Positions 6,261 to 13,133 of a DNA stretch of 64,000 nt are shown piece by piece. Position 1 is the stretch's first letter; each line of letters opens with the position of its first letter. The translations under genes and the position numbers were made by a program. This stretch comes from Escherichia phage UPEC01, in the sequence record MW233709. The stretch is one strand, 5' to 3'. The notes below the pieces were generated by a model that worked only from the letters and a program-made list of their open reading frames with translations, ran no database searches and was not told the DNA's origin.

Positions 6261-6264
6261 TTCA

Positions 6265-6290
6265 GGGACTCTTCGGAGTCCCTTTTTTAT
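6265..6290 (+). terminator. intrinsic terminator
   Basis: GGGACTC-TTCG-GAGTCCC followed by TTTTTTATTTT. Confidence 0.7.
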
Positions 6291-6303
6291 TTTCCATAAA
6301 GGG

Positions 6304-6333
6304 GTTTACAACAGGGTTGGTCCAGTGCATAAT
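6304..6333 (+). promoter_or_regulatory. early promoter with conserved leader
   Basis: GTTTAC 6304-6309, 18-nt spacer, CATAAT 6328-6333; downstream 23 nt identical to copy at 30559. Confidence 0.55.
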
Positions 6334-6374
6334 GATTCCATACTGAGTTACACAATAAAACACTGGAGAATAAA

Positions 6375-6743
6375 ATGAAAATCAATCTTAACTCATACAT
6401 CAAAGGTAAAGACCACGACGGTTACAAAGCCATTGAAACTAAAGAAATGCAATGGCACTTGTATAAAGAACAATTTGAATTCGTTTCTTGCATGACTCCA
6501 GAAGGTCCTTCTGATGACTTCTCCTGGAAAATTATGGTAACAAACTTTTTTACTGGTGATACCTACGAACTGAAAACTTTGATTCTTGGTAAGATTCGTT
6601 GTAAGACCTATGAAGATGAAGAAACTGGTTATTCTGAAGATGTTACATGGTATCAAAATGGTCGCACCACTGCTGATGATTTGATTGAAAAAATGAAAGC
6701 TAAGGGTGAATTAAATTTAGATAATTGGATTAAAGTCGCATAA
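6375..6743 (+). CDS. hypothetical early protein (30.x-like cluster)
   Basis: 122-aa ORF with early promoter at 6304-6333 and SD GGAG; leader nearly identical to that of ORF 30606. Confidence 0.5.
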   Translation: MKINLNSYIKGKDHDGYKAIETKEMQWHLYKEQFEFVSCMTPEGPSDDFSWKIMVTNFFTGDTYELKTLILGKIRCKTYEDEETGYSEDVTWYQNGRTTADDLIEKMKAKGELNLDNWIKVA

Positions 6744-6747
6744 AACA

Positions 6748-6787
6748 GTTTACTTTGGTACAGGTTATGATATTATAGACCTGTACC
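6748..6787 (+). promoter_or_regulatory. early promoter with -10 inside a hairpin loop
   Basis: GTTTAC 6748-6753, 17-nt spacer, TATTAT 6771-6776; inverted repeat GGTACAGGT 6757-6765 / ACCTGTACC 6779-6787. Confidence 0.55.
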
Positions 6788-6814
6788 AACAAATGAAAAC
6801 AACTGGAGAATAAA

Positions 6815-7180
6815 ATGAACTACATCAACTTTGAACGCAAATATGTTTCTAACTGCATCCCAGGTTCTTCTGAAGTTATTTGCTTGTGGAAACATAAAAA
6901 TGGTTCAGTGTGCGAAATTGAGCAGTATATGACTCCTAACTACGTTTATATGCGATTTGAAAATGGTATCACTCTTTCAATCACTATGACTGGTTCAACT
7001 TTTAAAATTGCTTTAGATGATGATTTCCGTGAACGTGATTTAGGGACTCATCCTTGCTGGAATGGTGTTAATCGCAAGCTGTTGGTTAAAACTTGGATTC
7101 GTCATATCCTGGGTAACAAAGCAAAACCTGAACACCTGGAAGCAATCTTTGATGTAGTTCTTAATGAATTTGATATCTAA
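6815..7180 (+). CDS. hypothetical early protein (30.x-like cluster)
   Basis: 121-aa ORF; promoter-in-hairpin element at 6748-6787 and SD GGAG upstream. Confidence 0.5.
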   Translation: MNYINFERKYVSNCIPGSSEVICLWKHKNGSVCEIEQYMTPNYVYMRFENGITLSITMTGSTFKIALDDDFRERDLGTHPCWNGVNRKLLVKTWIRHILGNKAKPEHLEAIFDVVLNEFDI

Positions 7181-7700: not shown

Positions 7701-7913
7701 ATGTTTAAGAAACTGATTCAGAAAATTTTGGGCACAGAAATGGTTGAAGTTACTTATCGCGTAACTGACGTGAGTCCATGGGCCCGAAATATTGAACCAT
7801 ATACTAAAACAATTAAAATGCTGAAATCTGACGGTGGATTATCTATTAAAGACCGTCTACCTGGTTATGGTCATTGGGCTGATGTAGATATTATCAGTGT
7901 CAAAGATGTCTGA
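7701..7913 (+). CDS. hypothetical protein (30.x-like cluster)
   Basis: 70-aa ORF, tightly packed with neighbours. Confidence 0.4.
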   Translation: MFKKLIQKILGTEMVEVTYRVTDVSPWARNIEPYTKTIKMLKSDGGLSIKDRLPGYGHWADVDIISVKDV

Positions 7914-8364
7914 GTTAGAAATCAGAAGCAATTTCCCATGGCCATCATGTGCATTAAGTAACTTTGCTAAATGGCCTTTTGTTATGGATGGCATCCAGTT
8001 TGGAGGTCTTGAAGGCTTCCTCCAAGGGTGTAAGGTGAGAAATCATGAACAACAAAAACGTATATTTGGGATGTCCGGTCTGGCCGCACAACAAACTGGA
8101 AGAGCTTATGCTAGAGCTGCGGACCGTGGGACGCTTTTCTGGCTTGGAATTCCCTTTTCAAGATACTCTGCATCATGGAAAGAGTTGTATACAAATGCTT
8201 ATTTTGAAGCAGCGCTTCAAAACAAAGGATTCCGCGACGCATTACAAGCTACAAAGGGCAAAGTTTTAAAGCATTCGATGGCGAGCCACCTTACTGTTCA
8301 TGATACAATATTGACTGAACAAGAATTTATTGACATACTTAACCAATTGAGAGATGCATTATGA
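7897..8364 (+). CDS. NADAR/YbiA-like (DUF1768-type) protein
   Basis: 155 aa; segment LSNFAKWPFVMDGIQFGGLEGFLQGCKV resembles the YbiA core DFSNFAAWPIKVDGKTWPTSEHYFQAQKF (recalled); position corresponds to T4 30.3. Confidence 0.5.
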   Translation: MSKMSELEIRSNFPWPSCALSNFAKWPFVMDGIQFGGLEGFLQGCKVRNHEQQKRIFGMSGLAAQQTGRAYARAADRGTLFWLGIPFSRYSASWKELYTNAYFEAALQNKGFRDALQATKGKVLKHSMASHLTVHDTILTEQEFIDILNQLRDAL

Positions 8365-9185
8365 AACCCGTTATTTTAACAGATATTGATGGCGTATGTT
8401 TGTCATGGCAGTCTGGCTTGCCTTATTTCGCCCAAAAATATAATTTACCCCTGGAACATATCCTTAAGATGATTCAGGATGAAAAATTTGTGACCCCTGG
8501 TAAACTGTTCAATTGTGATGAAGAGTTGGGAGCACAGTTGATTGAGAAATATAACTGTTCAGATTTTATTCGCTATTTGTCTCCTTACGCAGATGCATTA
8601 GGGGTTATTAATAACCTCAAAGAGCAATATGATTTTGTGGCTGTTACGGCTCTGGGTGATTCCATTGATGCCCGTCTGAATCGTCAATTCAACCTGAATG
8701 CTTTGTTCCCTGGCGCATTTAAAGAAGTGATGATGTGCGGCCATACAGCCTCTAAAGAAGAGTTATTTCAGAAAGCGAAGACCAAATATAATGTCGTTTG
8801 TTATATTGATGACCTTGCACACCATTGCGACCATGCGAGTGAAATCCTTGAAGTCCCGGTTTATTGGATGGCTCGTGGCGAACGTGATGCTATTCCTAAA
8901 ACAGCTTCCAAAGTTTTTAATTGGGACGATGTTGCTGGACAGCTTAAGTTGAAACACAAAGATGAACCGGTCAAACCCGAATTCACCCCAGATGAACTCC
9001 GTAAACTGGAAGAGTTGTTTCGTGAAAGTCGACGTCTTCAACAACAAATGCAGCAAGGATGGCAACCAGGTCAACCATGGACCCCTGGATATAATCCAGC
9101 ATATCCATATCAATATGGCCAGCGCGTAGGTACTGGTATTGAATACTGGTACAATCAACCGACCGGTGGCCAAGGGGGTAATTGA
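8361..9185 (+). CDS. HAD-like hydrolase with Q/P/G/Y-rich C-terminal tail
   Basis: 274 aa; HAD motif I LTDIDGV at N-terminus; C-terminal 50 aa low-complexity (QQQMQQGWQPGQPWTPGYNPAYPYQYGQ...). Confidence 0.55.
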   Translation: MKPVILTDIDGVCLSWQSGLPYFAQKYNLPLEHILKMIQDEKFVTPGKLFNCDEELGAQLIEKYNCSDFIRYLSPYADALGVINNLKEQYDFVAVTALGDSIDARLNRQFNLNALFPGAFKEVMMCGHTASKEELFQKAKTKYNVVCYIDDLAHHCDHASEILEVPVYWMARGERDAIPKTASKVFNWDDVAGQLKLKHKDEPVKPEFTPDELRKLEELFRESRRLQQQMQQGWQPGQPWTPGYNPAYPYQYGQRVGTGIEYWYNQPTGGQGGN

Positions 9186-11014: not shown

Positions 11015-11015
11015 C

Positions 11016-11037
11016 AAAAGGGCTTCGGCCCTTTTTT
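11016..11037 (+). terminator. intrinsic terminator after DNA ligase
   Basis: GGGC-TTCG-GCCC followed by TTTTTT, A-run upstream. Confidence 0.65.
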
Positions 11038-11039
11038 AG

Positions 11040-11047
11040 TATAAATA
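11040..11047 (+). promoter_or_regulatory. late promoter TATAAATA upstream of alt
   Basis: Exact TATAAATA 25 nt upstream of alt ATG, just after ligase terminator. Confidence 0.6.
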
Positions 11048-11072
11048 CATCATATTTTATAAGGAACCTATT

Positions 11073-13133
11073 ATGTCTGAACAATTAAATGAACTCTTTG
11101 ACAAATATATCGAAGCCTTCGGTTATCCTGTCATTAATATGAACCCAAAATACAAGGTCCCACAGGTTTGGCAATTCGGTGTTCCTGGGACAAATTCTCT
11201 TATGGCTCGTTTGATGCAATTCACGGGCAAAGAAACGGTTAAACAATATAAACGCGGTGATGCGATTGCCGAGGTATTTCTGTTATCCGGGACTTCACAT
11301 GGCCATGCTATTCCTCTGAAGGGTGGTCTAGGTGAAAAACCTCTTGACGCGATTAACCTGATTTTTGTTACAGTCTGGGAAAGCATTAAACTAGGTAAAC
11401 CTGATGTAGTCTTGTTCCGTTTCCCATCCAAAAAGATGAAAGGACAAGACCAAGCTGTTATTCGTATTATGAATCGACTGATTCAAATGAAAACCAGCGG
11501 ACGTTATCATGTTCTTCCGAATGCTTCTGGCCTCGGTAAAAAGAACGCTTATGTAATTATGTACAAAAAGGGTGTTGACCTGCTTTCGGTTGATGGTATG
11601 CCACCAGTCCCTGAGAAATATCAAAAAGTTGAAACTAAAGTTGGCGATGTATTCACCAATAAAGATACAGGCGCGCAAGTCTCCAAACAAGAAATCGCAG
11701 CCGAAGTTCTGATTAACGCAGCAAACAAAAAGACCGACGCAGCTGTTGCCCAGAAAACTAAAATCAGTCGCCGAGCTATTGCACAAGCCCAGTACGCACC
11801 AAGTGATTCCGTGCCAGAAGGTTGGGACGAAATTGATGCAGAAGCTGCTAAGTTTAGTCGACCGGCTACGGCAGAACTTATCGATGATTATGAAGAACTG
11901 GAAATTTTTGTTCGACCTTCCGAAACGAATACTATGGCTCGTATGCGCGCCGCGGATACGGCTATGCGAGCAAATGGTGTTTGGAAAGAAGAAATTCGTG
12001 TTGAAGACTCTGACCCAATTTTTAACCGTATGCATCGTGAACTTAAACGTGCCCCAGTTGGTAGCATGAAGCAGATGCAGATTTTTGCCGAATCATGCGC
12101 AGAGATTCTTAACCTTCGCAAAGCCGCATTTATCGAAAGAAAAATGAATGATGCTCCTCCTAACCTGGATGCAGCCACTTATGCAGCCTCGCTCTGGGAA
12201 AAAGAATACACAAGCGCCATTCGTGTTGCAGTTAAAGACTTTGCCGAAGAAGCATCAGAAAATACTCTTAATTTCACAGCAGGGTATACTGACAACCGTT
12301 TCCATTATGGCCAGCGAGAAGCAATTGCAGATTATTGTGGAGCAAACTATGCCGATATTAATAATTATTTGATGGGCAAATATTATGAAGAAGAAGCTGA
12401 ATTCCTAAATCTAGACAGAGTTGTCGAAACAATTAAGGAATTGGATTCGGCCTTTGAAATTGGACATAAGTTGCCGCCTAATACAACTCTTTGGCGTGGT
12501 CAATATTTAAATGTTCCTACATTTGATAAAATTAAGCAATCGAAATTATTTTATTTCAGGAACTATGTATCAACGTCGTTTAAACCGATTATCTTTGGTG
12601 GTTGGGTGGCGAACGTTGCTATGGCTGCAGTTCATCAGGACTATCGTGATGGGACATCTTTCCAGGCTGATGACGAAATTGTTTTACCAGATATGCCGGA
12701 TGCACGCCGCGACCACGTAATGATGCATGTTGGTTGGAAAATTTCTGGGGCGGACTTAATTAACGTAATTGTTCCTGGGGAATTGTCAAGCAACCCGTCC
12801 GAGCAGGAAGTTATTCTTCCTCGTGGGACTGTAGTTAAGATTACCAAAATTACTGATGCTTCGTATCAAGGAAACGCGAACGTCAAAATGCTGGAAGCTG
12901 ATATCCAGACTACGGACCAACTGGATGAAAATGCAGTTATCTATGATGGCGATGTGTTGATGGAAACTGGTGAGCTTGTCGTTTATCAGGGCGAGGAAAC
13001 AGAAGAGCCAGTAGAATCTGTTGACTTTGCATCGTTTGCATCCTCTGGTGTAACGAAGAAAGTCAATCAAGGTCTTGGTATTCTTGCTAGTTGTATTAAT
13101 TTGGAAGCTATTCCTCCTAAATTCCTTTCGTAG
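11073..13133 (+). CDS. alt: Alt-like mono-ADP-ribosyltransferase (head-packaged)
   Basis: 686 aa; conserved KVETKVGDVFTNKDTGAQV...KISRRAIAQ region as in T4 Alt; C-terminal ART motifs YVSTSF and EQE; late promoter TATAAATA at 11040-11047. Confidence 0.88.
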   Translation: MSEQLNELFDKYIEAFGYPVINMNPKYKVPQVWQFGVPGTNSLMARLMQFTGKETVKQYKRGDAIAEVFLLSGTSHGHAIPLKGGLGEKPLDAINLIFVTVWESIKLGKPDVVLFRFPSKKMKGQDQAVIRIMNRLIQMKTSGRYHVLPNASGLGKKNAYVIMYKKGVDLLSVDGMPPVPEKYQKVETKVGDVFTNKDTGAQVSKQEIAAEVLINAANKKTDAAVAQKTKISRRAIAQAQYAPSDSVPEGWDEIDAEAAKFSRPATAELIDDYEELEIFVRPSETNTMARMRAADTAMRANGVWKEEIRVEDSDPIFNRMHRELKRAPVGSMKQMQIFAESCAEILNLRKAAFIERKMNDAPPNLDAATYAASLWEKEYTSAIRVAVKDFAEEASENTLNFTAGYTDNRFHYGQREAIADYCGANYADINNYLMGKYYEEEAEFLNLDRVVETIKELDSAFEIGHKLPPNTTLWRGQYLNVPTFDKIKQSKLFYFRNYVSTSFKPIIFGGWVANVAMAAVHQDYRDGTSFQADDEIVLPDMPDARRDHVMMHVGWKISGADLINVIVPGELSSNPSEQEVILPRGTVVKITKITDASYQGNANVKMLEADIQTTDQLDENAVIYDGDVLMETGELVVYQGEETEEPVESVDFASFASSGVTKKVNQGLGILASCINLEAIPPKFLS

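What the first reader, a model, noticed from the sequence alone, without database searches (positions are those of the whole stretch)
7897..8364. NADAR/YbiA-like ORF in the early cluster upstream of DNA ligase and the Alt ADP-ribosyltransferase
The 155-aa protein contains LSNFAKWPFVMDGIQFGGLEGFLQGCKV, which resembles the conserved core of E. coli YbiA-type NADAR proteins (SNF-WP...DG...E..F.Q..K). NADAR domains act on NAD/ADP-ribose-derived substrates, and some remove ADP-ribose from guanine in DNA. A phage copy encoded about 3 kb from alt could process ADP-ribosylated substrates or counter host ADP-ribosylating defence toxins. The assignment is from memory of the motif, not a search.
Basis: inference. 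Interest (0 to 1): 0.55.

Follow-up and report, generated by a model that had tools for sequence, protein, structure and literature searches.

The report
Phage AdfN: known anti-DarT NADAR enzyme

Summary
The ORF is real. Its likely start is the ATG at 7906 (152 aa), not the GTG at 7897. The window is a T-even phage (Tevenvirinae), closest to Escherichia virus TH41 and Dhakavirus-type phages. The protein hits Pfam PF08010 (Phage_30_3) at E=1.9e-64 and is 86% identical, without gaps, to T4 gp30.3. It lies in the T4 gene order 30.4, 30.3, 30.2, 30.1, ligase, alt.

It gives no direct hit to Pfam NADAR (PF08719). The remote relationship still holds:
- 34 of 108 family members hit PF08719.
- A family profile aligned to E. 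coli YbiA gives 90.7% probability, E=1.2e-6.

E36, K43 and the phage-type H123 are conserved. The C-terminal helix lost in the inactive RB69 allele is intact.

T4 gp30.3 was named AdfN in 2025. It is a guanine-specific DNA ADP-ribosylglycohydrolase, necessary and sufficient for T-even resistance to DarTG1. The NADAR assignment and the anti-toxin idea are therefore supported. The suggested link to alt has no support beyond conserved T4 gene order. Verdict: correct, ordinary, already known.

The parts
7906..8364 (+). adfN (T4 gene 30.3 orthologue) coding sequence, 152 aa plus stop. A stand-alone NADAR-fold DNA ADP-ribosylglycohydrolase.
7897..7905 (+). Probably not translated as part of the protein.
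   Evidence: The T4 and PSD9 annotations and the published residue numbering start at MSELEIRS.
7906..7913 (+). ATGTCTGA overlap: the start of adfN overlaps the stop of gene 30.4 (7701-7913). This suggests translational coupling.
   Evidence: Sequence. T4 has the same 8-nt overlap (30.4 at 6759-6965 and 30.3 at 6308-6766 in L001).
7954..8037 (+). It holds the invariant S18-N19-F20 and the E36-G-F-x-Q40-x-x-K43 active-site helix.
   Evidence: Invariant or near-invariant columns in the 108-sequence family alignment. Aligned to YbiA S30-N-F and E48...K55.
8011..8013 (+). Codon GAA = E36, the catalytic glutamate. Equivalent to AdfN-T4 E36, YbiA E48 and, per the literature, PnNADAR E43.
   Evidence: Invariant in A1. 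The E36A mutant of T4 AdfN is defective in vivo and in vitro (PMC11825919).
8032..8034 (+). Codon AAG = K43, the phosphate-binding lysine. Equivalent to AdfN-T4 K43 and YbiA K55.
   Evidence: At least 90% conserved in A1 and invariant in A2. The K43A mutant of T4 AdfN is defective.
8272..8274 (+). Codon CAT = H123. This histidine follows the last beta strand and replaces the Glu of the YbiA family and the Asp of DarT1-linked NADARs. It is the signature of the phage gp30.3 subfamily.
   Evidence: Invariant in all 108 family members. The subfamily definition is in PMC11543638 and PMC11125620.
8317..8358 (+). C-terminal alpha helix (residues 138-151), needed for full activity. It is missing from the naturally truncated, DarTG1-sensitive RB69 allele.
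   Evidence: Helix H138-151 in the model. RB69 gp30.3 ends after T137. The truncation phenotype is in PMC11825919.
8361..8364 (+). ATGA overlap: the stop of adfN overlaps the start of gene 30.2 (8361-9185).
   Evidence: Sequence. The same 4-nt overlap occurs in T4 and in 10 close relatives (gap 0).

Best explanation
Window 7906-8364 encodes AdfN (anti-DarT factor NADAR, T4 gp30.3). It is a small, single-domain NADAR-fold N-glycosidase made by the phage during infection. When a DarTG1-carrying host releases the DarT1 toxin, DarT1 puts ADP-ribose on guanine bases of phage DNA and blocks replication. AdfN hydrolyses the guanine-ADP-ribose bond, releases ADP-ribose and restores the base, so replication proceeds. 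It works as an orphan antitoxin: a functional analogue and distant homologue of DarG1, but without a partner toxin.

Shown here: orthology to T4 AdfN, the NADAR fold, intact catalytic residues E36, K43 and H123, an intact C-terminal helix, and conserved T-even gene order.

Shown by others on the T4 orthologue: hydrolysis of guanine-ADP-ribose but not thymine-ADP-ribose, and necessity and sufficiency for DarTG1 resistance in T-even phages.

Inferred: that this 86%-identical allele has the same activity.
For: - Family: PF08010 E=1.9e-64.
- Orthology: 86% identity, no gaps, 152/152 residues aligned to T4 gp30.3. Same gene order as T4, RB69 and PSD9.
- Conservation: E36 and H123 are invariant and K43 is at least 90% conserved across 108 homologues.
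- Remote sequence link: hhalign of the family profile against YbiA gives 90.7% probability, E=1.2e-6. 34 of 108 members hit PF08719, best 1.5e-7.
- Intact length: full protein, against the RB69 truncation.
- Literature: AdfN-T4 is necessary and sufficient against DarTG1, and E36A, K43A and the C-terminal truncation impair it (PMC11825919). In vitro it hydrolyses G-ADPr but not T-ADPr (PMC11125620). Transposon insertions in T4 30.3 are lost only when DarTG1 is present (bioRxiv 10.1101/2025.11.20.689424).
Against: - No experiment exists on this allele. It differs from the T4 protein at 22 of 152 positions, clustered partly in the 124-131 loop, although none falls at an invariant family position.
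- The single sequence does not reach Pfam NADAR (no hit at E<=1), and sequence-only PDB searches stay marginal (E=1.2 and 0.062).
- T4 AdfN does not rescue DarT1 toxicity in uninfected cells and helps non-T-even phages only partly. The mechanism therefore has an unidentified context dependence, and DarT1-modified DNA may not be its only substrate.
Confidence: 0.9

Rival explanations
1. It is a YbiA-type metabolic N-glycosidase that hydrolyses reactive riboflavin-pathway intermediates (or another small ribosylated metabolite), not a DNA repair or counter-defence enzyme.
Against: The TIGR02464 score is 12.9 bits against a cut-off of 73.7. The Glu that defines the YbiA family is replaced by an invariant His. 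The T4 orthologue has a clear DarTG1-dependent phenotype and acts on DNA. YbiA itself also hydrolyses guanine-ADPr in vitro.
Confidence: 0.03
2. It works with the phage's own ADP-ribosyltransferases (Alt, encoded 2.7 kb downstream, or ModA/ModB) by reversing or editing their protein or RNA modifications. This is the reader's first alternative, processing ADP-ribosylated substrates near alt.
For: Alt is encoded nearby on the same strand (11073-13133; PF03496 hit). NADAR substrate range beyond DNA guanine has not been fully explored (PMC11125620 discussion).
Against: The adfN-to-alt spacing is simply the conserved T4 gene order, with ligase, 30.1 and 30.2 in between. In divergent phages the neighbours of adfN homologues vary widely. 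Alt modifies arginine in proteins, and all demonstrated NADAR activity is on guanine N-glycosidic ADP-ribose. T4 adfN is dispensable on hosts lacking DarTG1.
Confidence: 0.03
3. It is a decayed or inactive allele, as in RB69, kept only by synteny.
For: Broken alleles are common. RB69 is truncated. The databases hold frameshift chimeras and a deletion fusion (P0014, P0019, P0018).
Against: This copy is full length, carries every invariant family residue, has the complete C-terminal helix, and folds with pLDDT 95.5.
Confidence: 0.03

Closest known systems
AdfN-T4 (T4 gp30.3, anti-DarT factor NADAR; Pfam PF08010 Phage_30_3). Johannesman et al., Nat Commun 2025 (PMC11825919); Cihlova et al., Toxins 2024 (PMC11125620).
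   Same: Same family, length (152 aa), residue numbering, catalytic E36/K43/H123, C-terminal helix, flanking genes and start/stop overlaps. 86% amino-acid identity.
   Different: 22 substitutions, for example SHLTVHD against SGLTKDD at 125-131. The host genome is a TH41/Dhakavirus-type T-even phage, not a Tequatrovirus. This allele has not been tested experimentally.
DarG1, the DarT1-associated NADAR antitoxin (BC4488 subfamily; G. lovleyi NADAR, PDB 8BAT; E. coli C7 NADAR). Schuller et al., Mol Cell 2023 (PMC11543638).
   Different: No adjacent DarT toxin gene. No N-terminal extension: 152 aa against 219 aa, and the core starts at about residue 12. His replaces the catalytic Asp in the last strand. 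The T4 orthologue does not neutralise DarT1 in uninfected cells.
E. coli YbiA (PDB 2B3W; YbiA subfamily of NADAR, riboflavin-intermediate N-glycosidase)
   Different: About 20% identity. The subfamily-defining Glu in the LVEH strand is His here. TIGR02464 is far below cut-off. Different biological role.
AdfN-Bas32 and AdfN-Bas60, NADARs of T5-like and Vequintavirinae phages (PMC11825919)
   Same: Phage-encoded NADARs that counter DarTG1 by the same chemistry.
   Different: According to the paper they belong to other NADAR clades, were acquired independently, and work without T-even-specific context. I did not compare their sequences here.

Membership tests
Phage_30_3 / AdfN (T4 gp30.3) family | Significant match to the PF08010 profile over its full length | tested here: met
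   E=1.9e-64, 216 bits against a cut-off of 36, profile positions 2-138 of 138. phrog_652 E=8.4e-51.
Phage_30_3 / AdfN (T4 gp30.3) family | Orthologous position in the T-even early region (30.4, 30.3, 30.2, 30.1, ligase, alt) | tested here: met
   Window ORFs and Pfam hits compared with the T4, RB69 and PSD9 annotations.
Phage_30_3 / AdfN (T4 gp30.3) family | Histidine in place of the YbiA-family Glu or BC4488-family Asp after the last strand | tested here: met
   H123 is invariant in 108 of 108 sequences.
Phage_30_3 / AdfN (T4 gp30.3) family | Full-length protein with the C-terminal helix (absent from the inactive RB69 allele) | tested here: met
   152 aa. Helix 138-151 in the model. Alignment with RB69.
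Phage_30_3 / AdfN (T4 gp30.3) family | Removes ADP-ribose from guanine in DNA and confers resistance to DarTG1 | not testable with these tools
   Shown only for the T4 and T2 orthologues.
NADAR superfamily (Pfam PF08719 / DUF1768) | Direct significant hit of this protein to the PF08719 profile | tested here: not met
   No PF08719 hit at E<=1 for the window protein. The PDB sequence search reaches YbiA only at E=1.2.
NADAR superfamily (Pfam PF08719 / DUF1768) | Remote homology through family profiles or intermediate sequences | tested here: met
   34 of 108 family members hit PF08719, best E=1.5e-7. hhalign of the family profile against YbiA: probability 90.7%, E=1.2e-6, 103 columns.
NADAR superfamily (Pfam PF08719 / DUF1768) | NADAR/YbiA fold (helical core flanked by two small sheets) | tested here: met
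NADAR superfamily (Pfam PF08719 / DUF1768) | Conserved catalytic Glu and Lys in the E-x-[FY]-x-Q-x-x-K helix | tested here: met
   E36 and K43 align to YbiA E48 and K55. Conserved family-wide.
YbiA subfamily (riboflavin-intermediate N-glycosidase, TIGR02464) | Catalytic Glu in the last strand, and a score above the TIGR02464 cut-off | tested here: not met
   His at that position. 12.9 bits against a cut-off of 73.7.
DarG1 (DarT1-linked NADAR antitoxin, BC4488 subfamily) | Encoded next to a DarT1 ADP-ribosyltransferase, with an N-terminal fold extension and a catalytic Asp | tested here: not met
   The neighbours are 30.4 and 30.2, with no ART adjacent. The protein is 152 aa with no extension. 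His, not Asp. No PADLOC hit.

The most novel reading that the evidence does not exclude
AdfN-T4 is reported to need an unidentified T-even factor for full activity. The translationally coupled downstream gene 30.2 (8361-9185) could be that factor. It has a weakly HAD/PNK-phosphatase-like N-domain and a Q/G/P/Y-rich tail. Alternatively, this His-type NADAR may have a further substrate, such as guanine-ADPr on RNA or products of other defence ARTs. My data do not exclude either idea, but they do not favour them. gp30.2-like genes accompany adfN in only 17 of 83 diverse loci, and the T4 transposon-screen paper reports 30.3/adfN for the DarTG1 condition and never mentions 30.2.
Probability: 0.06. 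Interest if true: 0.5.

Novelty: already known. Interest (0 to 1): 0.12.

Why it matters
This is a correct functional annotation of a gene that most deposited T-even genomes still label 'hypothetical protein'. An intact adfN predicts that this phage resists DarTG1-carrying hosts, which is useful for predicting host range and choosing therapeutic phages. It adds no new biology. The family was classed as a phage NADAR in 2012, according to the later papers. It was shown to hydrolyse guanine-ADP-ribose in 2024, and shown to be the T-even anti-DarTG1 factor in 2025.

Tried and rejected
1. Direct Pfam NADAR hit for the single sequence: none at E<=1. A family-profile search of PDB sequences improved YbiA only to E=0.062, with spurious RNF8 coiled-coil hits nearby. 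Sequence-only evidence is therefore marginal until profile-profile or fold methods are used.

2. gp30.2 as a conserved operon partner of AdfN. tblastn and a 4-round iterated HMM search over all ORFs in 83 loci found it in 17 loci only, mostly close T-even relatives. The genes immediately downstream in the other loci fall into many unrelated small clusters. I rejected a conserved two-gene module.

3. The embedded ORF 30.3' (8045-8269) as a real overlapping gene. It hits Pfam DUF2883. However, 2056 of 5000 synonymous-codon shuffles of adfN keep a +1 open run at least as long, and the +1 frame is not kept open in distant homologues (mean 50 codons). So I found no evidence beyond a by-product of the AdfN sequence.

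4. Bacterial context of family members. The P0051 (Methylocystis) look-up found no record. P0108 lies on a jumbo-phage-like contig of over 300 kb, not next to a toxin.

5. gp30.2 identity. Nothing significant in PDB sequences, NCBIfam or PADLOC.

6. The promoter scan gave no more sites than shuffled sequence (27 against 23.3 +/- 5.8), so I make no claim about the transcription unit.

Full report
**Observation.** The sequence around the start reads ...GTG TCA AAG ATG TCT GAG.... The ATG at 7906 overlaps the TGA stop of the upstream ORF (7701-7913) as ATGTCTGA. Starting at 7906 gives a 152-aa protein beginning MSELEIRS. That is exactly the length and N-terminus of annotated T4 gp30.3 and of the PSD9 CDS, and it puts the published catalytic residues at their published numbers. 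The ORF's stop overlaps the start of the next gene as ATGA (8361-8364).

**What genome this is.** A 3-kb stretch around the ORF matches 713 phage records. The best are Escherichia virus TH41 (98.5%) and many T4-like coliphages at about 94-95%. The protein is 100% identical to the TH41 copy and 96.7% identical to that of Shigella phage PSD9, a Dhakavirus in Tevenvirinae. Pfam and PHROG hits on the neighbours, together with the annotated T4, RB69 and PSD9 regions, show the canonical T-even order: 31, rIII, 30.9, 30.8, 30.7, 30.6, 30.5, 30.4, 30.3, 30.2, 30.1, 30 (ligase), alt.

**Family assignment.** The protein hits Pfam PF08010 (Phage_30_3) at E=1.9e-64, full length, and phrog_652. It is 86% identical to T4 gp30.3 over 152 of 152 residues with no gaps.

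It does not hit Pfam NADAR (PF08719) even at E<=1. The only PDB sequence hit is YbiA, at a non-significant E=1.2.

1. I aligned 108 homologues from the 5.8-billion-protein search. Scanned individually, 34 of the 108 hit PF08719, best E=1.5e-7. These sequences bridge the two families.
2. hhalign of that family profile against E. coli YbiA, taken from the MG1655 record, gave 90.7% probability and E=1.2e-6 over 103 columns.

The protein is a NADAR-fold enzyme.

**Active site and integrity.**
- E36 and H123 are invariant and K43 is at least 90% conserved in the family alignment.
- E36 and K43 align with YbiA E48 and K55.
- According to Schuller et al. 2023 and Cihlova et al. [quoted passage not shown] The window protein has the phage-type His (VLK-H123).
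- The RB69 allele, which a frameshift truncates 15 residues early and which fails to protect against DarTG1, ends after T137 in my alignment. The window protein continues through a confidently modelled helix at 138-151.
- The window copy is therefore an intact allele. Several database entries are not. P0014 and P0019 are frameshift chimeras between the AdfN frame and the +1 frame, and P0018 is a deletion fusion of gp30.7 with the C-terminal half of AdfN.

**Mechanism, from the literature on the orthologue.** Johannesman et al. 2025 (PMC11825919) mapped DarTG1 resistance in T2/T4 x RB69 chimeras to gene 30.3 and renamed it adfN. They showed that:
- it is sufficient, because ectopic expression rescues RB69, and necessary, because T2 and T4 deletions no longer plaque on DarTG1 hosts;
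- it does not bind DarT1;
- the purified protein removes ADP-ribose from DarT1-modified DNA, whereas the catalytically inactive variant used in that assay does not;
- the E36A, K43A and C-terminally truncated variants give only partial rescue;
- it does not counter the thymine-modifying DarTG2.

Cihlova et al. 2024 (PMC11125620) showed in vitro hydrolysis of guanine-ADPr but not thymine-ADPr by the T4 phage NADAR, and no rescue of DarT1 toxicity in uninfected cells. A 2025 transposon screen confirmed that T4 30.3/adfN insertions are lost only when DarTG1 is present.

By orthology, the window gene most likely does the same thing. It is a type-IV-like orphan antitoxin that enzymatically erases the toxin's DNA modification.

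**The alt connection.** Alt lies 2.7 kb downstream, but ligase, 30.1 and 30.2 lie in between and the arrangement is simply T4 gene order. In 66 divergent AdfN-bearing loci the flanking genes vary widely. I found nothing that links AdfN to Alt functionally.

**Side tests.** T4 AdfN is said to need an unknown T-even factor, so I asked whether the coupled downstream gene 30.2 is a conserved partner.
- tblastn and an iterated HMM search find gp30.2-like genes in 17 of 83 loci only.
- They are immediately adjacent (0-24 nt) in the close T-even relatives and in one 45%-identity locus, and 0.7-1.3 kb away in four others.
- The pairing is therefore lineage-specific, and the T4 screen paper never mentions 30.2.
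- gp30.2 itself has only sub-threshold HAD and PNK-phosphatase similarity and no hits in PDB sequences, NCBIfam or PADLOC.

The embedded ORF 30.3' (8045-8269) hits Pfam DUF2883. Its open frame is expected from the AdfN amino-acid sequence alone: 41% of synonymous-codon shuffles do as well.

**Verdict.** The gene is an ordinary, intact orthologue of a published and experimentally characterised anti-defence enzyme. Novelty: already known. Interest is low. Its value is as an annotation that predicts DarTG1 resistance for this phage.

Noticed in passing
window 8045-8269 (+), +1 frame inside adfN: The T4 '30.3'' internal ORF is present (74 aa, Pfam DUF2883 E=1.6e-26). Synonymous-codon shuffles of adfN keep an equally long +1 open run in 41% of 5000 trials, and the frame is not kept open in distant homologues. 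The ORF, and perhaps the Pfam family, may be a by-product of the AdfN sequence rather than a gene.
   Followed up: partly
database proteins P0014, P0019, P0018, P0004, P0013, P0016 (homologues of window 7906-8361): Broken adfN alleles recur in public data: chimeras that switch between the AdfN frame and the 30.3' frame, a gp30.7-AdfN deletion fusion, and N-terminally shortened gene calls that lack E36/K43. This resembles the natural RB69 truncation and suggests frequent loss, or sequencing or gene-calling errors.
   Followed up: partly
window 8361-9185 (+), gene 30.2: A 274-aa protein coupled to adfN by an ATGA overlap. It has only weak HAD_2 (E=0.11) and PNK-phosphatase PHROG (E=0.002) similarity, and a Q/G/P/Y-rich low-complexity C-terminal tail (about residues 225-274). 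The 212-aa variants in PSD9 and several IMG/VR relatives lack that tail. Function unknown. It accompanies adfN in only 17 of 83 loci.
   Followed up: partly
window 11015-11072, between ligase (ends 11014) and alt (starts 11073): The small gene alt.1, present in T4, RB69 and PSD9, is absent here. The 58-nt gap holds a GC-rich hairpin (11016-11035, AAAAGGGC-TTCG-GCCCTTTT) that the scan flags as terminator-like.
   Followed up: no
window 6264-6376: A strong terminator-like hairpin (6264-6283, 8 pairs followed by a T-run) lies between 30.9 and 30.8. It is followed by promoter-like sites (6305-6333 and 6347-6376) just upstream of gene 30.8, a possible start of the transcription unit containing adfN. 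Across the region, promoter-like sites are no more frequent than in shuffled sequence.
   Followed up: no
L085 6001-6468 (ENA contig of 308 kb) and L086/L087: A 37%-identical AdfN homologue sits on a very large contig of small unannotated ORFs, with Thg1-like, NUDIX and AAA genes nearby. The contig looks like a jumbo phage, so the gp30.3-type NADAR extends well beyond T4-like genomes.
   Followed up: no
PMC11125620 methods compared with T4 record L001 6308-6766: Cihlova et al. list their 'E. coli T4 phage NADAR (gp30.3)' construct as residues 1-208, whereas the T4 RefSeq gp30.3 and the window protein are 152 aa. The construct may come from another phage or include extra sequence. Worth checking before comparing activities.
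   Followed up: no
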